Source: Patescibacteria group bacterium
GTDB taxonomy: Bacteria > Patescibacteriota > Gracilibacteria > BD1-5 > UBA6164
DNA length: 48,696 nt
Assembly (NCBI GenBank): GCA_036170435.1
Contig: JAVHPF010000029.1
Span: forward strand, 1-48,696
Direction of reading: 5' to 3'
This document shows positions 1 through 28,210 of this stretch, piece after piece. Both the position numbers and the translations under genes were made by a program. Within the stretch, counting starts at the first letter, position 1. Every line of letters starts with the position of its first letter. The notes under the pieces were generated by a model that saw only the letters and a program-made list of their open reading frames with translations, was not told the DNA's origin and did no database searches.

Positions 1-161
1 ATAAAAAAACTTATAAAAATACAAATTTAAAATTTAGTAATTCAATATAAAATCTTTTAATTCTTCAGTTTTTGGCATTTTACTTAAATTAATTCTTTAA
101 TGGTTTGTATTTCAATATCAAGTAAGCTATCATAATTATATGCTTTTTCTGCCATATCTTC

Positions 162-1538
162 TAAAAATTTTTTATTTTCCAAAATATTTTCTTTTAGAGA
201 TGAAAAATATAAAAACATTCCTAATGCATCTCCAGAATCATAGATTGATTCTTCAAGGGATTCGTTTATTGAAATTAAGTAAGCCTCGAGTAAAGAGTTT
301 AATGCTTTCCTATTATTTTTTCATTCATAAAAATCTGCTTGTAATAAAAGATATTTATTATCTATTCATATAAGTTCTGAAAATATTTTATCCATCATTT
401 CAATATTGTTTTCATATAATTTCTTAATCAACAATAAAATTTTTTCTTTTAAATCTAAAAAATTATTTCAATTTCGGAATTGATACAAAATATTATAATA
501 ATCTGTAGCTTTATTAATATTTCTTTTTTCTACATATATTTCTAATAATTTATTTAATCAATAAATATAATTATCTACATCTCTATTTAAAAATGCTTTT
601 TCATATAGATTTTCGTAAGACTCTATTTTAGATTTATCTGTAAATTCTTTTTTAAATAAAAGCAAATTTCAAGAAGAATATAAATCTCCTAAATTTTTAT
701 AATAAGTATAATCTTTATTTACTTTTATATGTAATTGATATTTTTCCAAAGCATTAGAATAAAATGCTATTTCTTCGTAAAAAGCTCCTAATTCTCAAAT
801 AAGTTTAGTTTCTCATAAATCTATTGCATACTTATAAAGTTTTTCTATCTTTTCTTTATTTAATTCTATAAATTCTATTTTCTTATCTTTATTTTCTATA
901 TTTCCTAAATCAAGCAAAAATATATCTCTATGCAATTCAATATATTTAATCAAAGAAGTTTTTGATCATTTATTTATCCCTTCATTTAATATTTTTTCTG
1001 CTGTTTCTAAGTCTTGTTTATATAAATATGTATAATAACCATATTCTGCATAAGCATCCATATTATATTCACAAGCATTTTTACACTCTCAAAGTAAAAA
1101 GTCTACATTATTTTCATATGAAAATTCTCATCATTCATCAATAAGTAATCAAGATGTATATAAATTTAATATTTTTTCATAAATTAATCTATTTCAATAT
1201 TTTTTTGATTCATTAAAATATTCTAGAGTTTTATAATAATCTCCTAATTGCATAGTAAAATCACCTAATCTCTCATACAAGAAAGATTTATGAAAAGCTT
1301 TTAAATTATTTCAATAATCTATAGCTTCTTTTGCGATTTTATATCATCCATAATAATCCCCATTTTCTTCCATAATAGATAGAGATTGAGCTATTTCTTG
1401 TATTTTTATATCTGAATCGAGAATTTCATTAAAGTCTTCTGAAAAACAATTTTTTACATTGTCTATATCGTTTTGTCAGTTATTTTCTTCATTAAGCTGA
1501 TTTAATTCATCATGTCATAAAATTATTTCTTTATTCAT
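162..1538 (-). CDS. TPR/Sel1-like helical-repeat protein (458 aa, table 25)
   Basis: ATG at 1538, TAG at 162-164; every codon checked by position, with no in-frame TAA/TAG and many in-frame TGA. Repeated amphipathic motifs (GDYYGGYKIAKEAIDYGNNL, LGDFTMQLGDYYKTLEYFNES). No signal peptide. Confidence 0.6.
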
Positions 1539-1724: not shown

Positions 1725-2915
1725 ATGAAAAAAATTATCATTTTGCTTTTAAGCTTATTATCTCTATCTTTTTTCAGTTCTGCTTTAGCTTGAAGTCTAT
1801 GAATTTCACCTCTTAAATATGAGTATACAATTAATGCTTGAGATTCAAAATCTGGAGTAGTAAAAGTTACAAACAATAGTGATGTACCAATGACCTTATA
1901 TACTTCAAAAGAAGATTTTATAGCCTGAGATGATACCGGTACTCCAAAATTCGTAAAACCTGAAGACCAAGTTTCTCCAGAATTAAGTTTAGCTAATTGG
2001 CTTAAATTAGAAGAAGAAAATCTAACTTTAGCGCCAAAAGAAACAAGAGAAGTTAAATTTAAAATAACTGTTCCAAAAGATTGAGAACCTGGATGACATT
2101 ATGGTGCTGTATTTTTTTCTCCTTGAGTATCTGGACAATCACAAGTTTCAATAGTTCAAAGACTTTGAGTTTTATTACTTATAAATGTTCCTTGAAATGT
2201 TAAGGTAAGTTGATTTGTTGATAAATTTACAATCTGAGAAAAGAAAAATAACAAATTTGAAGAAAAAAATTCTTTTGCTAATTTTCCTATAAATTTTGAT
2301 TTATTATTCAAAAATGATTGAAATGTTCATTTGAAACCAACTTGAAAAATAGAAATTTTAGATGAAAGTAATATTCCTCTAAAAAATATATGAAAAGCTA
2401 CTTTAACTTCACCAGCTTGAGCTTATATTTGAGAAAAAATGGTAGATTACATACCACTTAATGATACACTTTGAAATGTTTTACCAAAATCTGAAAGAAA
2501 ATTTGAATCTTCTTGGGAATGATTTTGATATACTATTTTAAACGAAGACTGAACTAAGTCAGTTAAATTTAAAAGTCTTAGTGATTATTATGCTGATATA
2601 GCATCGGAAAAACAAGCTTATTTAAATTTTTGGGAACAAGTACATACAAGAACAGTTTCAAAAAATATGAAAGTTCTTATGACTCTTAGTTATGAAGGAA
2701 AAGATAAAGAAATTAAAGATTTTAAAGATGAGAAAACTATAAAAGTTTCATATAATGAAAAATATGTTTGAATAAATTATTATTTGATTTTTATAATAAT
2801 TTTATTAATATGAGCTCTTTTCTATTATTTCACTTCTATAGCTCCAAAAAATCGAGCTAAAAAAGAAGAAGAATTAAAGAAAAAAATAATGGAAGAATTA
2901 AAAAATCATAAATAA
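1725..2915 (+). CDS. DUF916/DUF3324-like (CscA-like) cell-surface protein with C-terminal membrane anchor (396 aa)
   Basis: Signal peptide MKKIIILLLSLLSLSFFSSALA. ISPLKYEYTINAGDSKSGVVKVTNNS...LAPKETREVKFKITVPKDGEPGGHYGAVFF matches the DUF916 logic. Second beta domain (RLGVLLLINVPGNVKVSG), then TM helix YYLIFIIILLIGALFYYF and a KKEEELKKK tail. TAA at 2913-2915. Confidence 0.6.
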
Positions 2916-2942
2916 ATTATCTAAATAATTTAAAATTAGAAA

Positions 2943-3368
2943 ATGAAAAAAATAATTTCAATTTTATCTCTTACAGCAATTTTCTTTTACTACTCAAATT
3001 TAACATTAGCTTTAAATTCGGTAGTTGTTTCTGCTGTAGTTTGAAATTTAAATCATTCTCCTGTTGTAATAAATATTGTTCCTAGTAATAATCCTAAACT
3101 ACTGAAAACAAATTCTCTTCAAAACTTTTCTCTTTATTTTAGGGATGATGAAAAAGATATAATTTATTACACAATTACTCCTAAAGATTGATATACAAAT
3201 CCTATAAATTGAATAATATATTCTTCCGATTATGATTCAACTTCTTGAGCTTATATAAATTTTGCATATTTAGCTCCTTCTATAAAAGCTTGAAATTCAA
3301 ATGTAAATATCATTTTAAATGATTGACCAAATATTGTATCTAAGGATATAAATTTATACATTTATTAA
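2943..3368 (+). CDS. small secreted protein, unknown function (141 aa)
   Basis: ATG 2943, TAA 3366-3368, six in-frame TGA. Signal peptide MKKIISILSLTAIFFYYSNLTLA. Same strand as and closely spaced with flanking surface genes. Confidence 0.55.
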
Positions 3369-3380
3369 AATCTAATAAGT

Positions 3381-4385
3381 ATGTCTAAATTTGCTAAAAT
3401 TTCTATTCTATTAATATCACTATTTTTCTTAGTTTTTACATCATTTTATGAACTAAGAAAAATAGATTTTTTTGATAGCGAAAATTTGTTTGATTTTGTA
3501 TGAAAAAATGATTCATTAAGTTGAACTACAACGAAAGATTTATTTTATAAAAAATGAGATTTATTAGAATATAATTTTTTTCTTCAAAAAGATTTTGAAT
3601 GAACAATTTCTATAAATACCGATAAATTAGATAAAATTATAAAAGATTATGATATTTACCTAAACGATGAAAAAATAAATAAAAATAGACTGAAAAATCT
3701 AAAAATAGATAGTTCGAAAATCCTCACATTTAAATGAAAAGCTATAAATAATAAAACAATTAATACAAAAGATAAGACAATAAGTGATTTAATTGATGTA
3801 GTTGTAGTAGATCAAAATGAAATATCTGATAAAAAAACAACAATAACTTGATCTTTAAATAACGTGAAATTATCTAGTTTAAATTTCAATTCAAATATAA
3901 ATAATTTACTTGTTATATCTTGAGATAATCTGGAAAATATACAATACGTAAATATTTGATGAAATTCATTTAATCCAAATTTCAATGATAAAAAAATTTA
4001 TATATGAATAGATAAAAATTCTTTTGCAGCATTAGATTATTTTGTATTTTTTCAACTTAAAAATAAGCAAATATTATCCTATCCTCAAAAAATAAGTTTT
4101 ACTTATGATTCAAATACATTAAATATTTCAGCTATAAGTCCTGCTTTAATTAAAAATGATATTGATAGATATATAGTAATTCAATGAAATAATTTATCAA
4201 AAGTTATAAGAGTTCAATTAAGTAATAATATAGTATTAAAAGAAACTGCTTTTAAAATAATTAATGATAATGTTATGACTATAAAAATTCCATCATGACT
4301 TAATCCTTGAAATTATTTTATAAATTTCATGTGAACTAAATGAATATTTGAATTAAAAAACTCTAAATTTACAATTACAAATTAA
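3381..4385 (+). CDS. secreted/anchored protein, possible Ig-like (IPT/TIG-type) repeats (334 aa)
   Basis: ATG 3381, TAA 4383-4385, frame checked. N-terminal hydrophobic helix ISILLISLFFLVFTSF. ISPALIKNDIDRYIVIQGNNLSKV resembles an IPT/TIG strand pattern (weak). Confidence 0.5.
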
Positions 4386-4408
4386 AATTATTTCTTAAAT
4401 TTAAAAAT

Positions 4409-7400
4409 ATGAAGAAAGTCACTAGTTTAATTTTGCTTATATCAATGCTTTTATCTAATGCTTTGTTTACTTACACAAATGCTACAGTTTTAGCATGACC
4501 TGATTTCAATGTAAAAATTTCATCAAATACTGATGCGACATATACAACAAATTTAAGTAATATTTGAATTTGAACCTCTTTAAGTTTCAAAAACGTTTCA
4601 GTTTTAGATAATTCTTCTTTAAATTGAACTTACAATATACACTTCCCTACTGGATTCACCTATAATTCTTATGATGCAAGTCAAAATACTTGTGGTTTTT
4701 CTCTAATATCTGCAACAAATTCAAATTTTAAATATTCTTTTTCAAATACATCAAATACTTGTGAATCAACAATTATTTTAAATTATACAACTAATTCAAA
4801 TGCTTCAATTTGAGTAAATAATATAAACATACTTGATGAAAATAATTCAATAGTACGAGATTTAAATGTAAATATAACTAGTCATAATTCTATTACAAAA
4901 GCTCAAACTTTAGACTTAAATTCTGATTGATATATTGATGGTTATAAATTAAATCTAGCAAATTCTAGTAATATTTGAAGTTTATCTTGATTACAAGTGG
5001 ACTGAGTTTCTGTTTGAAATATCTATTCCTCAGGAAGTCAATATATACTTCCTTTTACAGATAATATTTGGAATACTTGAGATTTACCACAAATCACATG
5101 ACTTTTTGATACTTTAAGTATTTGAAATAATGATATAAATGAAGAAGATTCAGCTAGACCTCAAATAATGAAAATAAATTCTACTGTACTTTCCACTCTA
5201 TGAGCTCAATCTTTAAATATTTGAACTTGAAATTTATTATTTGATATTTCTGAAAATTTAACTCCTAGTAGTAATCAATATTTTACTTTATTAAAAGGAA
5301 CTTGAACTATTGCTTGAACTTTTTCTTTTTTAAATAATAATTTAACGAAAGTTTATTTTGTACCATCAGTAAGTCTTTCAGCTTGAACTTATACATTAAG
5401 TGCAACTTCTGGAGCAAAAGACTGGTCATCTAATTGAAATATTATTGATGTAACTATTCCTAGTTTAATAGTAACTGATTCTATTTCACCAAACTGAATT
5501 GTGATTTGAACGAGTACTTGAATAAGTATAAATGATTGAGTAAGCTTAACTAACAATAATTATACTCAATTAACAATAGCAGCTACAGATGATGTTTGAG
5601 TTAGTCAAATGATGATTTCAAATGATTCTGGTTTTTCTAGTACTTCTTGGGAAACATATAATACAAGTAAATTAAACTGGTATTTATGAGCCGGAACTGG
5701 AATAAAAACAGTTTATGTAAAATTCAAAGATGAGGCATGAAATACAAGCGCAACTTATAGTGATAGTATAGAATATTGACCAACAAATAACTACATCAGT
5801 TTTAATAATATTGATTCAGTTTATACAAATAATTCAACTATAAGTCTTTCTTGAGGATGTAATTATATAAGTAATACTTGAGCAATTTTATCTAGCACTT
5901 TAGTTTGATATGTTAATTGAATTTCTATATGAAATATTACTTGTAATTCTCAAAAATGGTCTCATACTTTTAATCTAGCTGATAATACAACTAATTTAAT
6001 TAGATTAGAATATGATATAAATTCGTCTCTTAATAATGCTATAAATATAACTAGACCTATTCCGACTTGTTCAAGTCCAGCAAATGCGACTTTAGTTCCT
6101 GGAACAACTTATCCAACTTGTGACTTCACTTGTAATACCGGTTATACAAAACAATGATGAGCTTGTGTTGTAAAATCAGCTACAGTTACAACCGCTATTT
6201 CTAATTCTCGTACTTTTAGCTTTACTCCATTTACTCTATACTATTTAAATCCTATACAAAAAACATCTCTAGCTTTAGCTATAAGTAATTGAACTTCGAC
6301 TCTTACAAGTACTTTCACTTTAGATTCAGATTGAACAAGTGTTTCATTATCTAATTCGTCAGAAGCTATTTCTTGTAATTCTTGATATCAAGTTAGTTGA
6401 ACTTCTTGTATAGCAAAATCAATGAATATTACTAGTGCAACATATAATGCTCATAACTATAGTTTTACTCCATTTACTTTATATTATTATAGTCCTATAC
6501 AAAAAACTTCATTAGGATTAAATTTATCAAATGGTATTTATACTCTTACAACTACTTTTACTCTAGCTAGTAATTGAACAAGTGTTTCACTATCTAATTC
6601 TACTGAAAATCTGGTTTCTTGTAATTCTGGATATCATGTTAGTTGAAATTCTTGTATACAAGATTCTTCATGATGATGAGGAGGAGGTGGTGGTGGTTGA
6701 TGAGGTGGTGGATGAGCGATTACTCCGACTTGTACAAGTTCACAATTACAATGTAGTTCTTACAATAATTCTTATATTTGGACAAGGAAATCTGGAGTAA
6801 GTTGTACTTGATGAAATCTATGATTAGCTTGTATTCCAGCAACTACAAGTCAAACTGGAACAACTAATAATGGAACAATAAATTCTAACACATGAACTAC
6901 AAATAGTTCTACAGGAACAAATAACAATACTGATAATACTAATATTTGATGAAATCAATGATGAAATAGTTCAACTTGAACAAATACTCAAATTCCTGAA
7001 ATAATTGAAATAATAAAAACTGACTGAACTAAAATATATTTCACAGATATTGCGAATAATTTTGCAAAAAATTATATAGTTCAATTAGCATCAAGTGGAA
7101 TAGTAAATGGGTATTCTGATAATACTTTTAGACCAGGAAATAATACATCTAGAATAGAATTTCTAAAAATGCTTATGAAATGACTTGGAAAAGATTATTC
7201 AAGTTATATTTGAAAGAAAAATCCATTTTGGGACGTTCCGGATAATTCTTGGCAATCACCAATAGTAGCAAAAGCTATAGCTCTTGGAATAATTAGTCAA
7301 AATAGATATTTCTATCCAGATAAAACTATCTCTAGAGAAGAAGCTACAAAAATGTTAATAAAAGCATCTAAATTAAATTTATTAAATGTAAGTAAATCAT

Positions 7401-7570
7401 CTTTTACTGATGTAAATTGATGGTCTATGAATTATATAGAGACAGCCTATAAATCATGAATAACTAGCTGACAAAATATATGATGAAAACTTATATTCAG
7501 ACCTGGTGATAATATAACAAGAGCTGAAGTAACGAAGATAATAGTAAAAATTATAAGTATAGTTAAATAA
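4409..7570 (+). CDS. large cell-surface protein with Cys-rich modules, poly-Gly linker and three C-terminal SLH domains (1053 aa)
   Basis: Signal peptide MKKVTSLILLISMLLSNALFTYTNA. Duplicated ~80-aa modules ending CNSGYQVSGTSC / CNSGYHVSGNSC (about 6060-6660). 15-Gly linker at 6671-6715. SLH repeats from 7040: FTDIANNFAKNYIVQLASSGIVNGYSDNTFRPGNNTSRIEF, FWDVPDNSWQSPIVAKAIALGII, FTDVNGWSMNYIETAYKSGI...FRPGDNITRAEV. TAA 7568-7570. Confidence 0.8.
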
Positions 7571-7577
7571 AATAAAT

Positions 7578-7604
7578 AAAGCTTTCGAAATATACGAAAG
7601 CTTT
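7578..7604 (+). terminator. rho-independent terminator hairpin after the SLH gene
   Basis: Perfect 10-bp stem aaagctttcg / cgaaagcttt, 7-nt loop, followed by atttatt. Confidence 0.6.
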
Positions 7605-7631
7605 ATTTATTAAGTAAAATTTTTAGACAAT

Positions 7632-7666
7632 AAAAAACTCCAAAGAAAAATCTTTAGGAGTTTTTT
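7632..7666. terminator. bidirectional terminator hairpin between convergent genes
   Basis: aaaaaactcc...ggagtttttt with an inner aaaga/tcttt extension. A-run upstream and T-run downstream, so it can work on both strands. Confidence 0.6.
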
Positions 7667-7695
7667 ATTTATAAGAAATGCTATAAAAGCACAAA

Positions 7696-8358
7696 TTAGA
7701 ATGTACCTACAACTGTGAAAGTAAGAGTATCAGAGTAATCTGAAGCAGCAGCTGTTTCGTCAGCTGAAGTAGCAGCAACTGTAAAAGTTACATCATCATT
7801 TACAGCATCAGTTTTTTCTGGTCTAGTAGAAGAATAAATAGTAACAGCTTGGTTAACAGCATTAACTTCATGAGCCCCTGCACTATCAGTAGCAGAAAAA
7901 TCTGCAACACTAGAATCTGTTGGATTTGCAGTAGAAGCAAAAGTATATGATTCAGCTACACCGTCTTTATTAGCTATGTTAGCGTCATTATTAATAACAC
8001 CACTAGCTGTAATACTTCTTAAACCACCATTAGCAGAAGAAGCAGTAACGACTACACCATTAGTAGCATTAGTTCCTAATTCAATACCAAGATTTGCTGA
8101 TTTACCAGCAGTAGTCAAAGTACCTAATTCTAAACCAGTTCCTGAAATAGTCATATTTAAAACTGGAGAAACTGAAGCATTAACGATAACTGGAGTTAGA
8201 ACTCAAGTTGCAGTTCCTGGAAAATTACCATCCCAAGTTACACCTGTAGAAGTTCCACCAGTTATAGTACCAGTACCAATTTGTGCTGCCATAGCAACAT
8301 TCATAGCTAACATAGAAACTAGTCCTACAGAAGCCAAAGTTTTCTTAAATGTTTTCAT
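7696..8358 (-). CDS. abundant-type secreted Thr/Ala/Gly/Asn-rich surface subunit (220 aa)
   Basis: The two track ORFs (7696-8154, 8203-8445) are in one frame, joined by a single TGA (8203-8205). Start chosen at MKTFKKTLASVGLVSMLAMNVAMA (signal peptide). C-terminus DYSDTLTFTVVGTF resembles the terminal strand of SCPU/Csu- or WxL-type surface subunits (hypothesis). GC visibly higher than the flanks. Confidence 0.75.
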
Positions 8359-8587
8359 AAACAAAAACTTAAAAAATAAAAATACACGCGTGTCTTTATA
8401 TTGAAAAAGACATTTTACATTATCGCTGTTTTTTTTGAAAGTCAAATCAATCTTTACACTTTTTTATTTTAATGTGTAAAAAACATATTTAATATAAATT
8501 TAATAATAATTAAATAATGCTTTTACTTGATTTTTTTTATTTTTTAAGTATAGAAATATATGTAATAAAATATAATCATATAAAATC

Positions 8588-11500
8588 ATGAGAAAAATAT
8601 TTTCTTTTTTAACGCTTTTCTTTTTGATATCAAACATAGTTTGTTCAAATATTGTATACTGAAGTTCAGATATTAGTGTTACATCATTTACAACAAAAGT
8701 AAATTCTGGTAATGCTATCAGTTGAGATATAAAAGCTAATCCTTGAGATCAGCTTTCTATGCTTGTTTCATGAAATAATAATTCATCGACTATCCAAAAT
8801 AATGTGAAGCTAGAATTTATATTTTCAAATACTGTTGATTTTACAAATGATAATCCTGGTCAAACTAGTTCTTATGTAATGTGGTCACCAGTTAATTCAA
8901 ATATATCTCAAACTATTTTTGCCCCACCTTCACTTAATATAGCCCCAATTACTGCTTCATCTGTAAATTGAGATGCTTTAGATTTATATTATACAAAAAT
9001 AAGGGCAAATACTAATGCTAAAACTTATCTAACTACTATATGAGCTAGATTTTTAGCTGATTCTTATGTTTGAAATAGCCTTACTCGTAATATATATCTA
9101 AATGTAAGACCTCATATAACTAACTATTTTTTTTCTAAATCAGCTTTAGTTTGAAATTGAGTTGATTCAGTAGATTTAACATTGAAAGTAAAAGATTATA
9201 ATTGATGTGCAAATATTGCAGGATGAACTGTAACAGCTAATTTATCTAGTCTATGATTATCTAGTGCTGAACCTCTTTCTTATATTTCTTGTGATGCTGA
9301 TTGAAAAACTTGATTATTCAAAAAAACATGAATAGTAAGTCTTGCTTCTATTTGAGACAAAACTTTAACTTATTCTGATTTTTCAGCAAAAGATGCAGAT
9401 GGAAATTATAACACTCCAATAGATCCTAATACTACATTTGGTAATGAGGATAAAAAAACTAATTTAACTATTAGTATTGTAGCTCCAAATGCTCCTGTAC
9501 TTACTATATCTTCTATAAATCCAAGTATAGTTTCTAGCCAAGATTCAATACTTAATTTTTCAGCTACTCAAACTTGATCTTATAAAGTGGTATTAAACTG
9601 AGATTGAACTTGTTCTGCTTGAACGATTATTTCTGATTGGACTTCTTATAATTTGGAAAATTTAAATATAAATATAGTTAATTCCAATTTACAAAATTGA
9701 ACAAATACAATATATGCTTGTGTAAAAAATGCAACTTGAGATATATGAGCCGCAAATATATCTATAACAAAAGATACTTTAGCTCCTACTATATCTAATA
9801 TATCTATTTCGCCTTGAACTGTTACTACATCAAATGCTAATCTAAGTTTTGCTTGTAATGAAGATTGACAATATAAAGTAAATTATGCTTCTTTTGTTGG
9901 ATCTTATCAAACAGCTCTAACTAATCAAACAAATAATGTAAGTATATCTAATTCGTCATTATCTTTAGGAGCTAATAACATAACTATTTACTGTAAGGAT
10001 ACCGCTTGAAATGAAACTACATGAAATGCTAATATAAATAAAATTCAGCCAACTCCTGCTATGAGTTCTAGTTGAATGAGTATTAGTGATAATGATATTT
10101 GATGGGATTGAGTAGATTGAAGAGATTTAAAAGTAAATTGGGATACTTCAATTGGCTCTTCTTTTGCATGATTTGAATCTTATAGAATTTACGTATTACC
10201 TGAAAATACAGCTTTTTCTACTTGATATACTCAATTATGAATAGTTCCAAATTCTCGAATAAATACTTGGACTTGATCTAAAACTATAACAAATGATAGT
10301 GCTTGAAATCCTTTGGCTTGATGAAATTATAAAGCTTATGTTGCTATAATGTGAACTAGTTGAGAATTGTGAACTGTTGCAGCTAGTGCAACATGAACTC
10401 TTATATCTGATGTAGTTCCACATCCTTCAGTATTATCAGCGAGTTTTACATCTACAGGAAATTTACGAGTAAAATTTGATACAGCTCTAAAAACTGATTT
10501 ATCATCACATAATGCTTCTTTATTTGTTTTTCAAGCTTGATGAACGACATATACATGAACTAGCGTATCATCAATATCAAATGATACAATAAATATAAAT
10601 ATTCCTAATTTAACAAATACTGCTTCGACTTGAACACTTAGTGTTTTTACTTGAGCTGCCTGGTGAGTTCCAGTTGATGGTTCTTTTAACAATGCTAGTT
10701 CGTGAGTTTTAATAAGTGATGCTATATCTCCAAATATTATTAATTTTTCTACTTGAAGTACATCTTATTATTCAAATTTTTATTCTTGAACATTAGCTTT
10801 TAATTATAATATTTCTGAAAATCTAAAAGCTGGATGATTTACAAATATACAATTTACTAGAATTTGATGAAATACTGACATCTTAAAAACTTATTCTATT
10901 ACAAATACTTCTAATCTAACAACTTGATCTCATACTGAAAATATAGATTTAAATGCATTGTGACTTGTTTCGTGAGCTTATTATGAAGCTAGACTTATTG
11001 CTCAAGATTTAAATGGAAATACTAATACGAGTAATCCTATAAGTATAAAATTTGATAATGTTGGTCCTAGTATCGTTTCAATAAGTCCATTTTGAGCTCA
11101 AAAAGTATTAGGAATACTAAATCCTACTTTCACTTGGTTTTCTACTACTGATGATTCTTGAAATTGATCTGGAATAAAATGATATAAATTAAGAGTTTAT
11201 ACTTGAAATACAACTTATACTTCTTGGAAAACATGTACTTGAACTTATAGTGAATATAATATTACAAATTTATCAAATTTATCATACCAAACAACTTTAG
11301 CTAATTTATACAATTATGCTTGGGCTGTAACAGCTTATGATAATATGGAAAATATCTGAACAAGCTCTAGTTGTGATAATTTTTATACAAACAACTTAGT
11401 TCCTAGTTTTTCAAATTCTAGTATAACAGATACTGTTTTAAATAGTATAACTTATGCTAAATGATGAAATAATCTAGTTATTAAATCAACTATAACAAAT

Positions 11501-14500
11501 TCTAATTCTGCAAATATATACTTAAAAGCTGATAGTATAAAAGATTCTTCTTATTCAAATATATCTTGTGCTAGTCCAGTTTCTTGAGTAACTTGTTCTT
11601 ATAGTGCCAATATTGCTACATATACTTTTTCAGCTTGAGCTTTAGCTAGTTTATGAAGTTGAGTAAAACAAGTACAATTTACAGCAGCAAATACTTCAGG
11701 AATAAATACTTGAACAACTTTAGCTTCGATTACCCTTGATAATACATCTCCTAGTGTTGCTAGTGATACTCTAACTGCTCCTATTTCTTGAACTATAGGT
11801 TGAACTAGCACAAATATTACTTGGACTCCTAGTAAAATAAGTGACAATATGTGAGTTTCTTATATAAAATTAGAATATTCTTCTGATTGAGGTTCTAACT
11901 GGAATCTTATTTCAACGTGAGCAAATTCTTGAACTTATCCATGGAATATTACAAGTTTAACTTCTTGATCTAATTACGAAGTAAAAATAAGTGCTTACGA
12001 TGTTGTTTGACAATCAAATTCTGCTATTTGAGGAATATTTGCAATAGACAAAGTTCCACCAACTGTTCCATCAAATACCATAACTTATCCAAGTAATACT
12101 TGAATAAAATTAAAATGATGAGCAAGTGTAAATATAACTTGGAATACATGATGAATTACAGATAATATAGGGCTTGCTACAAACCCAATAACTTTATACT
12201 ATTCAATTGATTGATGAACTAATTATATTCAAATTGCTACAAATCTAGCAAATAATTGAACATATACTTGGACTGTTCCAAGTTTAGATAATACTACAAT
12301 GAAAATAAAATTAGAAGCAAGCGATAATGTTGCTAATAAATCTTTTGATATATCTGATAATAATTTTGAAATTGATTCTACTGTTCCAGTATTAACAGTA
12401 ACTGAAGCTTGAAATGGATGAAATACTCCTCAAACAAATAAATATGTAAATAATTCTTGAATAGACTTAACTGCTACTATTACAGATAAAAATTTATCAG
12501 GATGAAATGCTACTTATTCTTTTTATAATGCAACAACTAGTACTTATTGGAATTGAACTAGCTATGTGTGATCAGAAGTTTATAATGCATTAACAAATAT
12601 TAATGCTGCATCTTATAATTTATCAAATACTATAAATCCTAGTATAACAAATTGAAATACATATAAATTAAAACTTAGAGCAAGTGATATTGTTTGAAAT
12701 AATTATACAATACCTGAAATAACTTATCAATGAGATACTGTTAATCCTATTGTTTGATTTACAAATTGAGCTACTATTTATTCTAGTTGAACTGTTCTTA
12801 TTGCTTGAACATCTAGTGATGCGAGCTCTTGAGTAGGTGCTGTAAAATTAGAAATAACAAATTGATCTAATTATTTTGATTGAAGTTCATTTCAATGATC
12901 TTTAACACAACTTGCAACTACTACAAGTAATTCTTATGCTAATTGGAATTATAATTTCACTATTCCTGGAATAGTGGCAGATTGAACTAGTATAAATGTA
13001 AAATCTATTGCTTATGATAAAGCTTATAAAACTCCAAATTTTTGATCTGGTAATATAAGTGTAATAAAAGATACTACTTGACCTGTAATTTCAACTTGAG
13101 TTATAACATATCCTGCTGGATGAGAATCTTTTAGATGAGGACAAAACATAAATATAACTTGGAATACTTGAGCAATAAGTGATGCTGTTTCTTGAATAGC
13201 TGCAAATTCTATATCTTTAGAATATTATAACTGAACTGCTTGGCTTCCTTTAGCTAGTGGTCTTCCAAACTCTTGATCTTATAACTGGAATATTGCAACT
13301 ATTGATTATAATAATGCAAAAATAAGAATTACAGCTACTGATAATGTATGAATTTCCACTTCTCAATTAAGTGCATGATTTTTAGTTGATAGTCTACCTC
13401 CTCATGTAAGTAATGTGGAAACTATGGATAATGATGCAAATGGGCAAGTTGATTGATTACTTGTTAGTTTCAGTGAACCTATAAAAGATAATTCAATAAA
13501 TACATCTAAATTTTCTATCTCAAATTGAATAAATATAACTTGAACTGGTACAGCTTGAATTACAGATGATAACCAATTGACTTTATATTTTACAAACACT
13601 TGATCTAGTAATTTTACTCCGACTTTGACTTATACATCATGAGCTGTAACCGATTTTGTTGGAAATAATCTTATTGCCTGAAATATGATATCAGTAGATA
13701 AAGTTGTTCCTAGAGCACAAAGTGTTCAAATTTTTGATACTAACTCAAATTGAAAACTAGATAAAATAGAAGTGACTATGAGCGAACCTCTTACGGCAAG
13801 TTCTGTAAATAATTGATGGACTATTAATAATGCTTATAATTGAATGAGTGTATCTTCAGTAAATACTTCATCAAATAAAATAAATTTAATACTAAATGAA
13901 TCTAGTGCATTTAATACAGCAACTGGCAATCTAGCACTTAGTTTAAATAATACAATTTATACTGATTTAGCTTGAAATTTAGCTTGAAATATAACATCTA
14001 CTCCTATAGAAGATAAAGCTAGTCCAGTTTTACTTAGTTCTAGTACAAGTGATAATAATTCAAATTATAAAGTTGATAAAGTAAATTTATTATTTAGTGA
14101 AAATATAGCAAATATAAATCCTAGTAATTTAAGTTTATCTTATTTATCTACTTGATCTAGTATATCTAGTTTAACTTGAACTGGAACTTCTACATTAAGT
14201 TTAAATTTAGCTGAAACTAGTAGTGATAATGATTCATCTTATAAACCAAATGTTATTTATAGTTGAACTTCATTAAAAGATTCATCAAATAATACTACGG
14301 CTAATTTCAACCTAGCAGTAACAGATTGAGTAAGCCCTAAAATAATTTCTAGAGAAACTCTTGATTCAAATAATAATGGGAAAGCTGATGCAGTTAAAAT
14401 AAATTTTAGTGAAAATATAAACTGAAATATTTCATCTACTCTTATTTGAGTGAATTCATATAACATAGCATCTTATGCTACTTGATCTAATTATATAATT

Positions 14501-16159
14501 GCAAATGTTGATGAAAAAGATGTAATTGATACATCAGTATTACTTGACTCAAAAATTATTTCAAATACTTCACTAAAAGATTCTGATTGAAATTTAGTAT
14601 TAGCTGAAGCTTGATATTCAACTTCGAGTGATAAAATGTGACCAGTTATATCATTTGCTAGATTTGATTCTATAGATAAATTATATCTTAGTTTTAGTGA
14701 AAATATTACAAATGCTAGCTTACTTGCTTCTGATTTTGTATTAACTTGAACTACAGCTAGTATAATATGAGTAAATTTCACTTCATGAACAAACTCAGCA
14801 ATATTAACTTTGAGTTCTTCTAATATAACATATTGAACATCAACTATAAGTTTTAAAACAAATACAGCTAGTGATTCTGCTTGAAATAAACAAACTAATC
14901 AAGTATTTGCTCGTATTAGTCCTAGTGTAGTAATAAATGAAGTTATGTACTCTAATACTAAAGCAAATCAATATATAGAACTTAGAAATATGTGAAATAC
15001 TTCTGTTTCTATGTCTGGATGGATTTTACAAAATGCTAGCAATTCTGGAACTACAAATTTAAGTCTTCCAGCTTGAGCTACGATTTGAGCTAATTGATAT
15101 TATCTGATAGTAAATTCTAATACTTCCCTATCAATATTATCTTGATCTATAAGTCCTAATTATATAACAAGTTCTTTGAGTTTAAATAGTTCAAGTCAAT
15201 CAAACATAGTTATTACTGATAATTTATGAGCTATCTATGATTCAGTTGTTTCATTTCCTTGGGCAGCATGAAATTCAGTTTCAAATATTTCTATGGAAAG
15301 AAAAAATGTTCCTTGAAATTGAACAGTTTGAACAAATTGGTATTCTGCAGTAGCTTCTGTTTGATTTGATGACTTAATACCTAAATGAACTCCTGGAACT
15401 GATAATAAAATAGATGTAACTCCTCCTGTTATTTGATCATTTACTCCTACAGAAAATACACTATTTCCTATTTGAGATAATGTAAATTTAACTTATAATT
15501 ATTCTGATGATATAGCTTGAGTTTCTACTGGAACATCAAATATAGTAATACAAAAATATAATTGAGTTAGTTTTGATACTTTAGTTTCTCAAATAGCTTC
15601 TAGTAATATAGGTACTACAAGTGCTAATTATACGCTTAATCATCTTAACTTTGGTAAATATAAAGCTGTTTTTACTATAGATGATAAAGCTGGAAATACC
15701 GTAACTCAAGTTATAAATTTCTATGTTGATAAAGTAGAATTTGTTGTATCAACTTGAAGTGTAGATATTTGAAGCGTAAAGGCTAATATCTGAAAATATG
15801 CTGTAGTTGAAGAATCTATAACAGTAAAAACTCTTTGAGCTGGATTTAATCTTTATAACTGAAAAGCTGGAGCATTAAGTAAATGATTAACAGATATTCC
15901 TGATTATTCTTGAGCTACAAATTATTGATTTGGTTTTGATTTATATAAAAATGAAAATTGAACAATAAGAGATTATAACTCAATAATAAATCCAGTAAAT
16001 AATACTATTGTTTGAAATATAACAAAAGATGTATCAAGTTCTGACTGAACTCAAAAAACATATTTTTATAAAATTAAATATTATGTAAGAGTTGATGATT
16101 TACAAGCTGCTTGAAATTATTCTACAAATGCAAATTTCAACTTAGTTCTGAATTATTAA
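8588..16159 (+). CDS. giant cell-surface protein with Ig-like repeat arrays and a lamin-tail domain (2523 aa)
   Basis: ATG 8588, TAA 16157-16159; continuous frame with no TAA/TAG, and roughly one codon in ten is TGA. Signal peptide MRKIFSFLTLFFLISNIVCS. ~100-aa repeats (ITWNTGGITDN...TYTWTVPSL...ASDNVAN; DNDANGQVDGLLVSFSEPI, DTNSNGKLDKIEVTMSEPL, etc.). LTD motif VVINEVMYSNTKANQYIELRNMGNTSVSMSGWIL at about 14927-15400. Confidence 0.85.
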
Positions 16160-16165
16160 AATTAC

Positions 16166-16198
16166 AAAAAAGAGAGATTTCTAAAATCTCTCTTTTTT
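16166..16198 (+). terminator. rho-independent terminator after the giant gene
   Basis: Perfect 14-bp stem aaaaaagagagatt / aatctctctttttt, loop tctaa, ending in a T-run. Confidence 0.75.
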
Positions 16199-16300
16199 GT
16201 TTAGAAATAAACAATAATATTCTAAATTGTCAATCATTTTATTTTAAAAATTAGTAAATATATGTTAGAATATATGTAAATAAATTTAAATAAAATAATT

Positions 16301-17059
16301 ATGGAAAATTACTCTTTTAAAATACTTGGTAAAAAATACTATTTCAGAAATGAAAACGAATTATCTCAAATTATGTGAATACTTGGTTGAGATGATTCTA
16401 TTGCTGAGTTAATCCACTGGAATATAATAATGCAACTTGATGAAGACCTTTTGAAAATAATCAAAACATACAAAGGACTTTTGAAATTTCTGAAAACATT
16501 AAGTAAGAAAAATTATATGCTACTTTTACTTAAAATATGAGATAATCTGCATAATATAGTTTGAAGTTCAAAATATTTATGAGAAATTTTAGCGAGAATC
16601 CCTGAAGAAGAAAATAAAATAATTTTAATAAAAAGACTTAGATTAAAATGATTAAAATTATTTATCAGAGATGCTCACGATTTAAAAAATATATTTGAAT
16701 TTGTTTATGATAAATCAGAAACTGAATTACTTGAAACTCTATGAGAAGACTTTATAAAAGAAACTTTTACTAGGACTAATGAGATAATAATGACTCTTCA
16801 TTATCTAAGTAATACAAACAAAGAAAAACTTATAAATATGCTTTGACTTGAAAATGTTTATAAAAAAATAAAAACCTATAAAGATTTACTTGTTATGTTT
16901 AAATGACTGACACTTAAACAATCAAAAGAATTGCTAACATTTTATAAAAAAGAAGAACTAGTTAAATTTTTCTTAAATGATGAAGAATTTCACTATTTTC
17001 TACTTAGACTTCCCCATGAAAAAGAAAAAATATTTTTAAATTATTTATGAATTAAATAA
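16301..17059 (+). CDS. hypothetical alpha-helical protein (252 aa)
   Basis: ATG 16301, TAA 17057-17059; every line checked in frame, 13 in-frame TGA, no TAA/TAG. No recognisable motif or signal peptide. Confidence 0.5.
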
Positions 17060-17061
17060 AT

Positions 17062-18213
17062 ATGACAACAATAAAAACATCACTCAAAAAAACTAATAAA
17101 AAAGTAAAATGAGCAATAAATCCTGAATTCATAGCAAAAAAGATAAAAGAAGAGATTAGAAAAAATAAAAATAAAACTCTTTTTTTGGAAAAATTGGATA
17201 ATTTAGAAAAAAGTATCTGACCTAAATATCCTATTGTTGATGCGCATGTTCATGTAGTTGATTTTTTATGAGAAACTGAATGACTTAAAAATCTGCTTTA
17301 TTATATGAATAAATCAAATATAGAAAAAGCTGTGATTTTTGGTACTCCTACAAAAAAAATATGGTCAGAAAATGAAAGAGAAAGACCTGAATATTATCTA
17401 GATGATGATAATGAATGTTATTATGATTCTTCAACTGATACAATAGTAGCTAACGAGTATAATAGTTTATCAAAGAGTGAAAAAGAAAAATTTTTCCCAC
17501 TAATGTGTTGATTTAATCCTATGGATATAGATGCAGTAAATTATATTGAGAGAACTTTTAAATATAATCCTTGAGTATTTTGCGGAATTTGAGAAATTCT
17601 TTATAGACATGATGATTTAACATTTCAAACTCAATGAGAAGCTCCAAGAATGAATACAAAAGCGACTTCAAAAATACTTGAATTTGCTTCAAAATATGAT
17701 TTACCTGTAATGATTCACAATAATATCACCTCTCCTGGAGTTTCTGATTATCCAAAATATTTACATGAAATGGAATCTATGCTAATGGAATATCCAAAAG
17801 CTAAAGTAGTATTTACTCATTGTTGAGCATCAAGAAGATTAAATGCTCCATATTACGCTAAAATGATTGATAGATTATTATCTGAATATCCTAGACTTTA
17901 TGTGGATTATTCTTGGGTTGTTTTCGATGATATAATTTCTATAAGTAGTGTAACAATTGAGGAATGGATAGCTTTGACTGAAAAATTTTCTGATAGAGTT
18001 ATGATAGGTTCAGATATTCTTGGAAACTGATTTTATAAAATATGAGTTACAAACTCTAGATTTAATCATTTTCTTGATTCATTAAGTGAAAAAACTAGAG
18101 AAAAAGTTTGTAGAACAAATGCTATAAATTTATATAAAAATTCTAAAAATAGAGTAGAAAAATGACTACAAATCAAATACCCTAGTTTAAGTGAAATTAA
18201 ATTACACAAATAA
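17062..18213 (+). CDS. amidohydrolase-2 type metal-dependent TIM-barrel hydrolase (383 aa)
   Basis: Motifs PIVDAHVHVVDF, LPVMIHNN, VVFTHCG(TGA)ASR, MIGSDILG. In frame with track ORF 17305-17511. TAA 18211-18213. Confidence 0.7.
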
Positions 18214-18242
18214 ATATAAAATAGTAAATAGAACAAAACTTG

Positions 18243-18282
18243 AATAAGAGTATGTATTAAGTAATATATGCTCTTATTTTTT
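18243..18282 (+). terminator. terminator hairpin after the amidohydrolase gene
   Basis: aataagag(tatgtatt)...(aatatatg)ctcttatt, about a 16-bp stem including two G-U pairs, followed by tttt. Confidence 0.55.
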
Positions 18283-18294
18283 ATGTAATTAAAA

Positions 18295-19374
18295 ATGGAA
18301 ATTAAAGATAAATGAAATTCATCTATTTTAGAAGACAAAACAGGATGAAATGAAAATATAAAAATAGCCTCTAATGTAGATCAGATTCTAGAAAAACACT
18401 GAATAAGTGAAGGAAAAAGATTCGATATTAATCAAGATATTCGAATGCTTGAAACTGATATAAAATCACAAATAGATAATATCATAAATTTAGATACTGA
18501 TATTTTAAGTGAGTTAATTGAAAAATTACCTTTCCCTTCTGTTAGGTATTCTGCATCTTGAGAAATATTAAATTGGAATAATAAAATGGAATATTTAACA
18601 TGATATTCAAAAGAAGAAATATTAGACTATACAAAAAATTGAGGAAATCCAATGGAATTATTTTATTGATATGATAAAAAAGAATTTGAAAGAGTTAAAT
18701 TTTTCTTATCAATGTTAAAAGAATGAGATTGATATGAAGATCGAGAATTTGATATGATAACAAAATATGATGTTATAAAATATACTTTTTGGAATAGTTA
18801 CCCTACAAAAGATTGATGAAATATTAGATTAATGATTAGACAAGAATATCCAGAACAAAAAAAAGATCAAGAAAATGCTTTAGTTTTAAAAGATCAAGAA
18901 ATAAACAGATTAACTGAATTAGTAAAAAGACTTGAAAGAGAGATAAATAATAAGGATAAACAAAAACAAGATGAAATCAATGACGTAAAAACAAGTTTAT
19001 TATCAGCATCATTATGAAAAGATAAACTAATAGATGTATTAATAGAAAAATTATCTTACCCAACAGCAAGATATAATTCTACTGGAAGAGTTATAAACTG
19101 GAATTCTAAAATGGAAGAAGCAACATGATATTCATTTGATTTTATACAAGAATGGCAAGATGAATGAAAAACACTTGCGGAATTATTTTATTCTTATGAT
19201 GAAAAAGAATTTAGATGAGCTAGTAATTTTATTTGATCATTAGAAGAATGACAATCATATGAAGCTTCATTTAAAGCAAAAATAGCAAACTGAGAAATAA
19301 GAAACTTTTTTTGGCAAAGTACTGGAATAAAGGATTGATGAAGTATTAGAATGATAATAGATTTATTAGATTAA
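18295..19374 (+). CDS. tandem PAS-domain protein with central coiled coil, no output domain (359 aa)
   Basis: Two PAS-like cores: FPSVRYSASGEILNWNNKMEYLTGYSKEEIL and YPTARYNSTGRVINWNSKMEEATGYSFDFI, each followed by ...F(W/F)...KDGGxIR. Linker KDQEINRLTELVKRLEREINNKDKQ. In frame with track ORF 18832-19017. TAA 19372-19374. Confidence 0.65.
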
Positions 19375-20089: not shown

Positions 20090-20764
20090 TTAATTATCTA
20101 TATACCAAATCTTTTTCATAAATCAAAATCTAGATATTAATAAAAGAACTGATTGTTTTTTAGGAATTTCAGTTATAGCTTCTCAATAAATATCTGTAAG
20201 ACGGGTATCTTGTAATGAAATCCTTATTTGTTGCTGATTTTCTAATGTATTATAAGTTCATAAAATTAATGATTCATTTCATATTTTCCAATAATAGAAA
20301 GTAGTTCAAAACTTATTAAATGTATCAGGATTACCAAAAATTCAAGATAATTTTAATAATAATCATGAAAAAATAGAATAATTCCACTCTCAATTATTAT
20401 ATATACTTATTTTATCAACCGATAATAGAATTTTACCATTATCAAATTTCTTATTAGGTGGTATAGTTACAAAATTAAAGTATTTATTTGGAGTAATTTT
20501 AAATAATGGCTGGTAAATAAAATTTTCAAAAAAATCTAATTTAATATCTTTTTTAAAAGTTATAGATTTTTCTGGAGAATATAAATAAATATTATTATTT
20601 TCTGTGGGTATAAATAATACTGGTTCATCAATTGTATTATCTCAATAATATCAAAGAATTTTATTATTATAATAAATATATTCTCAAAATCAAATAGAAA
20701 ATATACTGTAAAACATCAAGATTAATGATAGTATAATAAGTCATTGTTTAATTATTTTTTTCAT
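20090..20764 (-). CDS. membrane-anchored protein in the rhs locus, possible accessory or orphan immunity (224 aa)
   Basis: ATG 20764, TAA 20090-20092, ends checked. N-terminal TM helix GLIILSLILMFYSIFSIGF. No recognisable domain. Confidence 0.5.
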
Positions 20765-28108: not shown

Positions 28109-28210
28109 AAAACAAAACATTAAAGAATTAAAAATGATAAGAATATCTTATCATTTTTATATTTTACATATCAAATATTAATTTTTTATTAACAAATAAA
28201 AGATTTTTAA

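What the first reader, a model, noticed from the sequence alone, without database searches (positions are those of the whole stretch)
1725..16159. Csc-like cell-surface gene cluster rebuilt with SLH anchoring and a giant LTD adhesin
Six consecutive exported proteins lie here: a DUF916/DUF3324-like anchored protein (the hallmark of Firmicutes WxL/Csc surface-complex clusters), two small secreted proteins, a 1053-aa protein anchored by three SLH domains, a probable major subunit (220 aa) and a 2523-aa Ig-repeat/lamin-tail-domain giant. No classical WxL motif or sortase signal is visible. The arrangement suggests a previously undescribed surface complex in which SLH-mediated wall binding replaces WxL binding. 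In CPR cells thought to live attached to, or preying on, other bacteria, this is a candidate host-attachment apparatus.
Basis: partly seen in the sequence, partly recalled or inferred. Interest (0 to 1): 0.7.

Follow-up and report, generated by a model that had tools for sequence, protein, structure and literature searches.

The report
WxLIP-like surface complex in CPR bacteria
A six-gene cluster in a tiny bacterium that reads UGA as glycine encodes a membrane-anchored protein shaped like a pilus chaperone, plus a small and a giant surface protein sharing an unnamed pilin-like end domain; this pairing recurs across the Candidate Phyla Radiation and probably displays adhesins on the cell surface.

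Summary
The observation largely holds. Under genetic code 25 (UGA=Gly) the region encodes six exported proteins. DUF916 (g1), 3xSLH (g4) and LTD (g6) all pass Pfam cut-offs. However, g5 lies on the opposite strand, DUF3324 is not detected by sequence, and there are three transcription units, not one.

The cluster is Csc/WxL-like:
- The g1 model's best PDB match is E. faecium WxLIP (E 1.8e-11). Pilus chaperones (CfaA, CsuC, Caf1M, FimC) come next.
- The gene set is syntenic across Gracilibacteria.

SLH does not replace WxL. The WxL slot is filled by an unnamed pilin-like C-terminal domain that makes up g5 and ends the giant g6 (profile-profile E 2.7e-8). This mirrors small and large WxL proteins. 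The domain shows no significant sequence similarity to WxL.

A g5-domain gene lies directly upstream of a g1-like gene in 65 of 78 loci from many CPR lineages.

SLH is a lineage-specific swap for the PG_binding_1 module found on other g4 orthologues.

Most likely function: a membrane-tethered, chaperone-like anchor (g1) holds g5-domain proteins at the surface by beta-strand complementation. The mechanism is inferred, not shown. I found no prior description of this in CPR.

The parts
1725..2915 (+). g1: WxLIP-like protein (396 aa). Signal peptide, two beta-sandwich domains, a long beta-hairpin, a C-terminal TM helix and a charged tail.
   Evidence: Pfam PF06030 33.1 bits > 27.3. hhalign against real WxLIPs Prob 95%, E 2.7e-8. 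Model of the 85%-identical orthologue has pLDDT 83. Foldseek #1 9i25_C EfmWxLIP1 E 1.8e-11, followed by pilus chaperones.
1818..2120 (+). DUF916 / WxLIP_PGBD domain of g1 (aa 32-132). It includes the conserved but low-confidence loop EDFIAGDDTGTPKFVKP (aa ~63-79), a candidate inserting strand.
   Evidence: Invariant residues E63 D64 F65 G72 P74. pLDDT 60-67 for aa 61-80.
2760..2846 (+). C-terminal transmembrane anchor of g1 (aa 346-374).
   Evidence: Hydrophobicity scan. Helix 352-395 in the model. 94 of 103 g1-like proteins in other loci keep such a segment.
2943..3368 (+). g2: small exported protein (141 aa), no known domain. Conserved accessory gene of the Gracilibacteria operon.
   Evidence: No Pfam or NCBIfam hit. 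Orthologues directly follow g1 in L001, L002 and about 20 further loci. Unrelated to the other cluster families.
3381..4385 (+). g3: 334-aa protein with an N-terminal hydrophobic anchor and a weak IPT/TIG-like C-terminal part. Conserved accessory gene.
   Evidence: Synteny. No relation to other families.
4409..7570 (+). g4: 1053-aa exported wall-bound protein. It has a conserved N-terminal ~340 aa, a variable middle, a poly-Gly linker (6671-6715) and 3 SLH repeats.
7040..7552 (+). Three SLH repeats of g4 (aa 878-1048). This is a lineage-specific replacement of the PG_binding_1 module found in other orthologues.
   Evidence: PF00395 92.7 bits, 3 stretches. Coordinates. Orthologues: PG_binding_1 in 6 of 8, no SLH. 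SLH also present in the closest relative L089.
7571..7611 (.). Palindromic terminator-like hairpin (17-bp stem) shared by the convergent genes g4 and g5.
7696..8358 (-). g5: 220-aa exported protein consisting only of the 'g5 domain' (pilin-like beta-sandwich, aa ~50-220, nt 7699-8211) plus a conserved flexible N-terminal segment. UGA(Gly) is avoided.
   Evidence: Family of 404 representatives with no Pfam family. Model pLDDT 81.7; best PDB matches are CsuA/B, CfaB, FimG, cannulae and TasA. Gly codons 21 GGN: 1 TGA.
8588..16159 (+). g6: 2523-aa giant with a signal peptide, divergent Ig/fn3/Big_5-like arrays, an LTD domain and a C-terminal g5-type domain.
   Evidence: 41% identical full-length orthologue in L002. 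Giants of 2510-2600 aa sit next to the operon in at least 12 loci.
14921..15247 (+). Lamin-tail domain of g6 (aa 2112-2220).
   Evidence: PF00932 49.8 bits > 34.3.
15731..16156 (+). C-terminal g5-type domain of g6 (aa ~2382-2523), ending ...AAGNYSTNANFNLVLNY.
   Evidence: hhalign of 19 giant C-termini against the 156-sequence g5-domain profile: Prob 95.2%, E 2.7e-8, 135 columns end to end. Controls give E 0.13-0.5. The same module ends other large proteins beside g5-g1 pairs.
16164..16200 (.). Terminator-like hairpin directly after g6.

Best explanation
The region encodes the Gracilibacteria elaboration of a CPR-wide surface-display module built like the WxL/WxLIP (Csc) clusters of Bacilli.

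g1 is a WxLIP homologue. It has two Ig-like domains on a stalk and is tethered to the cytoplasmic membrane by a C-terminal helix. Its fold also resembles PapD-type pilus chaperones.

Its clients are proteins that end in the 'g5 domain', a pilin-like beta-sandwich. They are the small, probably abundant g5 (domain only) and the giant g6 (Ig/fn3/LTD arrays plus the domain at the extreme C-terminus).

Inferred mechanism: a conserved but intrinsically unstructured loop of g1 inserts as a beta-strand into the g5 domain. AlphaFold2 predicted this kind of insertion for WxLIP-WxL, and chaperone-pilin complexes are known to work this way. The insertion would hold g5 and g6 non-covalently at the cell surface.

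g4 binds the wall through an exchangeable C-terminal module. Here it is 3xSLH; elsewhere it is PG_binding_1. g4 is co-transcribed with g1-g3 and probably positions or stabilises the complex in the envelope. g2 and g3 are lineage-specific accessory subunits of unknown role.

The giant's N-terminal arrays are the likely adhesive part.

Shown: the homologies, domain sharing, synteny and fold classes. Inferred: strand insertion, surface display and the adhesive role.
For: - g1 is a WxLIP homologue. Pfam PF06030 is above cut-off. hhalign against 4 real WxLIPs gives Prob 95%, E 2.7e-8. A real-WxLIP HMM hits many CPR g1 homologues. Foldseek best hits are 9i25_C and 9i1y (EfmWxLIP1) at E 1.8e-11 over ~330 columns, then the chaperones CfaA, CsuC, Caf1M, FimC, CupB2, FaeE and EcpB.
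- g5's fold matches the cognate pilins CsuA/B, CfaB, the PapG pilin domain and FimG, and also cannulae and TasA fibres.
- g5 and the C-terminus of g6 share one domain (E 2.7e-8; controls 0.13-0.5).
- Across the loci the domain is at the extreme C-terminus in 91 of 99 ORFs. It ends in F or Y in 92 of 99, and none of 95 has an anchor of its own.
- A g5-domain gene lies directly upstream of a g1-like gene in 65 of 78 loci across CPR.
- The usual order giant-g5-g1-g2-g3-g4 is conserved in at least 10 Gracilibacteria loci. The window's rearranged order is shared with the closest relative.
- 94 of 103 g1-like proteins keep the TM anchor.
- The g1 loop at aa 63-79 is invariant yet modelled with low confidence. 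This parallels the WxLIP hairpin that AlphaFold2 predicts to insert into WxL (PMC10599100).
- g4's wall-binding modules are interchangeable.
Against: - No sequence homology between the g5 domain and WxL could be shown. There is no PF13731 hit in 38+10 members. hhalign gives E 0.004-0.16 against a reversed-sequence control of 0.07-0.1 and unrelated-family background of 0.035-0.7.
- The solved long-WxL chain 9i25_A is not among g5's top 50 structural matches.
- g5's pilin matches are weak (best E 1.9e-3, TM 0.34/0.45).
- DUF3324 is not detectable by sequence.
- Some orthologous operons (L001, L024, L032, L033) have no g5 or g6 within 10 kb upstream, and g5 paralogues occur without g1 (L006). The partnership is therefore not obligatory in cis.
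Confidence: 0.62

Rival explanations
1. Usher-less donor-strand fibre. g5 polymerises head to tail by donating its conserved N-terminal segment to the next subunit, as in Csu/CFA-I pili, TasA or archaeal cannulae. g1 acts as a membrane-tethered chaperone or base, and g6 is the tip adhesin whose C-terminal pilin-like domain joins the fibre.
For: - The Foldseek classes pair up as pilin and chaperone.
- g5's mature N-terminus (aa 27-66) is conserved (IGTG, W42, FPGTA) yet unstructured in the monomer model.
- Adhesin domains followed by a C-terminal pilin-like domain mirror FimH, PapG and CfaE (established knowledge).
- The domain ends exactly at the C-terminus in an aromatic residue in 92 of 99 cases.
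- UGA avoidance suggests that g5 is highly expressed, as a major subunit would be.
Against: - The pilin matches are weak (TM 0.34/0.45).
- The modelled g5 domain already has a C-terminal strand (E212-218). It is therefore not obviously missing a strand.
- Most non-Gracilibacteria family members carry an extra N-terminal domain instead of a short extension.
- No oligomer prediction was possible.
Confidence: 0.22
2. One reading: a Csc-like complex in which SLH-mediated binding to secondary cell-wall polymer has replaced WxL-mediated wall binding.
For: - g4 has three bona fide SLH repeats.
- No WxL motif or PF13731 hit is present.
Against: - SLH is confined to the window lineage. Orthologous g4 proteins carry PG_binding_1 instead, and no SLH was found in 78 loci.
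- The small-plus-large client pair sharing a C-terminal domain exists and is what co-occurs with DUF916 across CPR.
- No csaB was found in the window.
Confidence: 0.07
3. g5 is an independent major envelope or S-layer-like protein. Its adjacency to g1 reflects only the clustering of envelope genes, with no physical partnership.
For: - g5 is a separate transcription unit on the other strand.
- g5 paralogues occur without g1 (L006).
- Its codon usage suggests high expression.
Against: - 65 of 78 loci show same-strand immediate adjacency across very distant CPR lineages. Clustering alone is unlikely to preserve that.
- The same domain ends the neighbouring giants.
- The homologous WxLIP is known to bind its neighbouring small and large WxL proteins (PMC9772566 citing Galloway-Pena 2015; PDB 9i25).
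Confidence: 0.07

Closest known systems
WxL / WxLIP (Csc) cell-surface clusters of Bacilli (Enterococcus, Listeria, Lactiplantibacillus, Bacillus)
   Same: - A DUF916-type two-Ig-domain protein with a C-terminal TM helix, homologous by sequence and structure.
- One small domain-only protein and one large multi-domain protein share a strictly C-terminal domain.
- The small partner gene sits directly upstream of the WxLIP-like gene, as in reference loci L007-L010.
- All proteins are Sec-exported.
   Different: - The partner domain is not WxL. It has no dual W-x-L motif, no PF13731 hit and no significant profile similarity.
- DUF3324 and the NQIDKxxxYFDLK motif are not recognisable by sequence.
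- There is no LPXTG/CscD protein.
- Extra conserved genes g2, g3 and g4 are present.
- g1 has an additional long beta-hairpin stalk.
- The host is a CPR bacterium using code 25, and the giant is 2.5 times larger than typical large WxL proteins.
Chaperone-usher pili (archaic Csu, class 5 CFA/I, type 1/P pili)
   Same: - g1's fold matches the chaperones CsuC, CfaA, Caf1M and FimC (E 1e-9 to 1e-7).
- g5's fold matches the pilins CsuA/B, CfaB and FimG.
- The adhesin carries a C-terminal pilin-like domain.
   Different: - No usher and no outer membrane.
- The chaperone-like protein is membrane-tethered.
- There is no sequence similarity (0 PDB sequence hits for the g5 profile).
- Strand exchange has not been demonstrated.
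Donor-strand fibres of organisms without an outer membrane (TasA, Pyrodictium cannulae)
   Same: g5 gives weak structural matches to TasA (8aur_A) and to cannulae (9h8b). g5 is also Sec-exported, small, and probably abundant.
   Different: Those systems need no WxLIP-like partner. The matches are weak, and there is no SipW-type signal peptidase or related gene in the cluster.
SLH-anchored surface (S-layer-type) proteins
   Same: g4 carries three C-terminal SLH repeats with TRAE-like motifs (SRIE, SREE, TRAE).
   Different: SLH is a recent module swap for PG_binding_1. No csaB is in the window, and g4's codon usage does not suggest a dominant S-layer protein.

Membership tests
WxL cluster (Hassan & Williamson: at least 1 WxLIP plus at least 2 WxL proteins within 4 genes) | WxLIP with a DUF916/PGBD domain | tested here: met
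   PF06030 33.1 bits > 27.3. hhalign Prob 95%, E 2.7e-8. Foldseek 9i25_C E 1.8e-11.
WxL cluster | Second domain DUF3324/HBD following DUF916 | tested here: inconclusive
   No PF11797 hit, and hhalign aligns only aa 31-135. However, the model has a second beta-sandwich at 163-283. The Foldseek alignment to EfmWxLIP1 spans ~330 columns of a 251-267-residue target.
WxL cluster | C-terminal transmembrane helix on WxLIP | tested here: met
   Hydrophobic segment aa 346-374. Helix 352-395. Retained in 94 of 103 relatives.
WxL cluster | Two proteins with a WxL domain (PF13731, dual W-x-L motif) | tested here: not met
   - No PF13731 hit at E<=10 in 38 family members, nor at E<=1 in 10 distant ones.
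- No dual W-x-L motif.
- hhalign against 7-, 11- and 89-sequence WxL profiles gives E 0.004-0.16. The reversed control gives 0.07-0.1 and the positive control 1e-12.
WxL cluster | Small domain-only protein and large protein sharing the same strictly C-terminal domain | tested here: met
   g5 against the g6 C-terminus: hhalign Prob 95.2%, E 2.7e-8. The domain is C-terminal in 91 of 99 ORFs. The shared domain is not WxL.
WxL cluster | Small LPXTG protein (CscD; frequent, not obligatory) | tested here: not met
   No LPXTG-type motif near any C-terminus.
SLH-anchored protein | Three SLH repeats | tested here: met
   PF00395 92.7 bits, 3 stretches, aa 878-1048.
SLH-anchored protein | CsaB pyruvyl transferase in the genome, for the pyruvylated wall-polymer ligand | not testable with these tools
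   No PS_pyruv_trans among the window's scanned genes. The rest of the genome is not available.
Chaperone-usher pilus | PapD-like two-domain chaperone fold | tested here: met
   Foldseek: CfaA 1e-9, CsuC 2e-8, and Caf1M, FimC, CupB2, FaeE, EcpB at 1e-7. This is fold level only.
Chaperone-usher pilus | Pilin subunit with an incomplete Ig fold and an N-terminal donor strand | tested here: inconclusive
   Best matches are pilins but weak (E 1.9e-3, TM 0.34/0.45). The N-terminal 40 aa are conserved yet unstructured.
Chaperone-usher pilus | Outer-membrane usher | tested here: not met
   No usher-like gene in the window or the related loci. No Pfam usher hit among the scanned genes.
Genetic code 25 (Gracilibacteria/Absconditabacteria) | UGA read as Gly | tested here: met
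   Codon budget. Poly-Gly tract encoded by mixed TGA and GGN. Closest relatives are named Candidatus Gracilibacteria.

The most novel reading that the evidence does not exclude
CPR bacteria, which have no outer membrane and no usher, assemble a chaperone-pilin-type surface fibre. A membrane-tethered PapD/WxLIP-like protein (g1) primes and anchors polymers of the g5 subunit, capped by giant adhesins that carry a C-terminal g5 domain. The Firmicutes WxL/WxLIP system and Gram-negative chaperone-usher pili would then be relatives of one ancient donor-strand machinery. This could be the long-sought non-type-IV-pilus host-attachment organelle of episymbiotic or predatory CPR cells.
Probability: 0.2. 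Interest if true: 0.9.

Novelty: new variant of a known kind. Interest (0 to 1): 0.66.

Why it matters
CPR bacteria are thought to live attached to other cells. Their known attachment repertoire is essentially type IV pili plus assorted giant proteins.

This finding defines a conserved two-gene core: an unnamed pilin-like C-terminal domain together with a DUF916/WxLIP-like membrane anchor. It was found in 65 of 78 loci from Gracilibacteria, Saccharibacteria, Uhrbacteria, Falkowbacteria and other lineages.

- It gives a name and a testable docking mechanism to hundreds of 'hypothetical' CPR surface proteins, including giants.
- It extends the WxLIP system far beyond Bacilli.
- The paired structural resemblance to pilus chaperones and pilins suggests how both systems may work and evolved.
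- It shows wall-binding modules (SLH, PG_binding_1) being swapped on one component. That is informative about CPR envelope diversity.

Tried and rejected
- Table 4 (UGA=Trp) was rejected on the codon budget and the poly-Gly tract.
- Direct Pfam or NCBIfam assignment of g5, g2 and g3 found nothing.
- The g5 profile against PDB sequences gave 0 hits.
- The g5-domain HMM and a single-sequence hhalign against the g6 C-terminus failed. The link became significant only once a 19-sequence profile of giant C-termini was built.
- WxL homology was tested five ways with real WxL proteins. These were retrieved from annotated plasmids with a bait sequence, then expanded to 85 sequences. All five tests were non-significant and no better than a reversed-sequence control. 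The collinear motif resemblance (LxMxIS..G.xDLG / TNAxNGVxI or TLGAGFNL / YxDTITFTV against LTxD..xFG / RGxGAGWxL / YxATITWTL) is therefore reported only as a lead.
- g2, g3 and the g4 N-terminus were compared with every other family and found unrelated.
- The promoter scan was uninformative in this AT-rich DNA (113 found, 114.6 expected).
- Literature searches for DUF916 in CPR found nothing.
- No csaB or sortase was found in the window.

Full report
**Genetic code and gene map.** The window is about 23% GC. Under table 11 it has only 2 ORFs longer than 150 aa, against 38 under tables 25/4.
- UGA means glycine. In ten genes TGA is 5.5% and GGN 2.1% of codons, which together make a normal Gly content, while TGG is 0.7%.
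- The poly-Gly linker of g4 (nt 6671-6715) is spelled with interleaved TGA, GGA and GGT codons.
- Closest relatives are named Candidatus Gracilibacteria.
- The six genes, each with an N-terminal signal-like hydrophobic segment, are: g1 1725-2915 (+), g2 2943-3368 (+), g3 3381-4385 (+), g4 4409-7570 (+), g5 7696-8358 (-), g6 8588-16159 (+).
- Strong palindromic hairpins at 7571-7611 and 16164-16200 imply three transcription units: g1-g4, g5 and g6.

- PF06030 (DUF916, now WxLIP_PGBD) hits g1 at 33.1 bits against a cut-off of 27.3.
- PF00395 SLH hits g4 three times (92.7 bits). PF00932 LTD hits g6 at 49.8 bits.
- PF11797 (DUF3324) is not found.
- No LPXTG, no dual W-x-L motif and no PF13731.
- No csaB among the window's polysaccharide-synthesis genes.

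**g1 is a genuine WxLIP.** I retrieved real WxL and WxLIP genes from annotated Enterococcus, Bacillus and Listeria plasmids.
- The g1 family aligns to WxLIPs with hhalign Prob 95%, E 2.7e-8, but only over the DUF916 part.
- The PDB now holds EfmWxLIP1 alone (9i1y) and bound to a long WxL (9i25).
- I modelled P0051, the correctly translated 85%-identical orthologue (pLDDT 83). It has two beta-sandwiches, a long beta-hairpin and the TM helix.
- Its best PDB matches are 9i25_C and 9i1y (E 1.8e-11 and 7e-11, about 330 columns).
- The next matches are chaperone-usher pilus chaperones: CfaA, CsuC, Caf1M, FimC, CupB2, FaeE and EcpB.

**g5 and the end of g6 share a new domain.**
- g5 has no Pfam or NCBIfam family. 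It belongs to a family with 404 representatives in which the domain is always C-terminal.
- Its model (pLDDT 81.7) best matches donor-strand fibre subunits: CsuA/B, CfaB, the PapG pilin domain, FimG, Pyrodictium cannulae and TasA. The scores are modest (best E 1.9e-3, TM 0.34/0.45).
- Its conserved N-terminal 40 residues are unstructured in the model.
- A profile of 19 giant C-termini matches the 156-sequence g5-domain profile end to end (Prob 95.2%, E 2.7e-8). Controls give E 0.13-0.5.
- In the window only g5 and g6 carry the domain.
- The cluster therefore has the WxL grammar: a TM-anchored WxLIP, a small domain-only protein, and a large protein with the same domain at its C-terminus (PMC9772566, PMC10599100).

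**Is the domain WxL? Not demonstrably.**
- No member hits PF13731.
- hhalign against WxL profiles of 7, 11 and 89 sequences gives E 0.004-0.16, aligning only the last hairpin or motif 1.
- A reversed-sequence control gives 0.07-0.1. Unrelated families in the cluster give 0.035-0.7. The positive control, small against large WxL, gives 1e-12.
- 9i25_A is not among g5's top 50 structural hits.

**Synteny and distribution.** A genome-collection scan with the g1 alignment found 186 relatives. The best 78 loci span Gracilibacteria/'Peribacteria' (code 25), Saccharibacteria, Uhr-, Falkow-, Terry- and Parcubacteria and others, as labelled in the records.
- A g5-domain gene lies on the same strand within 700 bp upstream of a g1-like gene in 65 of the 78. 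Three of the exceptions lack upstream sequence.
- 94 of 103 g1-like proteins keep a C-terminal TM segment. None of 95 g5-domain proteins has one, and 92 of 99 end in F or Y.
- In orthologous Gracilibacteria loci the usual order is giant-g5-g1-g2-g3-g4 (at least 10 loci). A few operons lack g5 and g6 nearby.
- The window's order, g1-g2-g3-g4-(g5 inverted)-g6, is a rearrangement shared with the closest relative, L089.
- g2, g3 and the g4 N-terminus occur only in the Gracilibacteria group and are unrelated to the other families.

**SLH.** None of the g4 orthologues in the 78 loci has SLH. Six of eight scanned end in PG_binding_1 above the cut-off. Only the window and L089 carry SLH. SLH therefore replaced a peptidoglycan-binding module on g4, not a WxL domain.

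**g5 expression hint.** g5 has the native GC3 (0.09) but uses GGN for 21 of 22 Gly codons, whereas its neighbours use mostly TGA. In 16 orthologous loci TGA:GGN is 28:378 in g5 genes against 118:406 in g1 genes.

**Mechanism.**
- Shown: the homologies, domain sharing, anchoring topology and conserved adjacency.
- Inferred: g1 holds g5-domain proteins by inserting a strand into their sandwich. The candidate strand is the invariant but low-confidence loop at aa 63-79.
- Precedents: AlphaFold2 predicted such an insertion for WxLIP-WxL, and chaperone-pilin pairs are known to work this way.
- Whether g5 also polymerises into a fibre with g6 as tip adhesin remains open.

**Novelty.** No paper in the searchable library links DUF916 with CPR. 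A Gracilibacteria metaproteome study discusses only type IV pili, secretion systems and VCBS proteins for adhesion. NCBI already labels g1 orthologues 'DUF916 domain-containing protein'. The partner domain and the CPR-wide module are, as far as I could find, undescribed.

Noticed in passing
window 7696-8358 (-) compared with its neighbours: g5 almost completely avoids UGA(Gly): 1 TGA against 21 GGN. In g1, g2, g3 and g6, 79-100% of Gly codons are TGA; in g4, 65%. GC3 is the same (0.09), so g5 is not foreign DNA. The bias holds in 16 orthologous loci (28:378 against 118:406). It may mean that UGA decoding is disfavoured in highly expressed genes of code-25 bacteria.
   Followed up: partly
window 6671-6715 (+): The 15-residue poly-Gly linker in g4 is encoded by interleaved TGA and GGA/GGT codons. 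This is compact direct evidence for UGA=Gly. Similar poly-Gly linkers occur in g4 orthologues (L001, L002, L021, L023).
   Followed up: yes
window 22361-28120 (-) and 21228-21671 (-): A 1919-aa RHS/YD-repeat toxin (PF05593, 302 bits) is followed downstream by an orphan 147-aa toxin-tip cassette. The cassette starts at the same MFVDPMG junction and is 37% identical to the RHS C-terminus (E 1e-22). This is a typical displaced-tip arrangement. The adjacent exported 224-aa ORF (20090-20764, -) has no known domain.
   Followed up: partly
window 28453-48584: A large envelope-polysaccharide gene cluster. It includes UDP-glucose dehydrogenase, GT2, GT1 and GT4 transferases, a GT1-GNAT fusion, WbqC, an FkbM methyltransferase, a nucleotidyl transferase and GDPD. 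No CsaB-type pyruvyl transferase was found. A Fic/SoFic-like protein (32564-33637) is embedded in it.
   Followed up: partly
P0001, P0050 and many 'lgn' database entries: Many public protein predictions for these genomes were translated with UGA=Trp. The window's own g1 appears in the database with 25 W and 6 G. These spurious tryptophans add noise to alignments and models, and I had to filter them out by W content.
   Followed up: yes
L004/L005 10759-12210; L040 9938-11389: A 483-aa paralogue of g1 (35% identity), paired with its own g5 homologue, carries a cytoplasmic zinc-ribbon-like tail (CRKC...CPYC) after the TM helix. This hints at signalling or regulated anchoring in some family members.
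   Followed up: no
L054, L065, L066, L075, L077, L082, L085 (standard-code CPR): Outside Gracilibacteria the module is often amplified. One to three tandem g5-domain genes (~350 aa, with an extra N-terminal domain) are followed by two or three tandem g1-like genes.
   Followed up: no
L089 16844-18868: The closest relative has an extra 674-aa Cadherin_5/Big_9 protein inserted between g5 and the giant. The window lacks it.
   Followed up: no
window 84-1538 (-), 16301-19374 (+), 28258-28332 (-): The flanking genes look cytoplasmic and unrelated to the cluster: a 484-aa repeat-rich protein, a 252-aa protein with no hits, an Amidohydro_2 enzyme and a double-PAS protein. A tRNA-Gln(UUG) is the only tRNA in the window.
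   Followed up: partly
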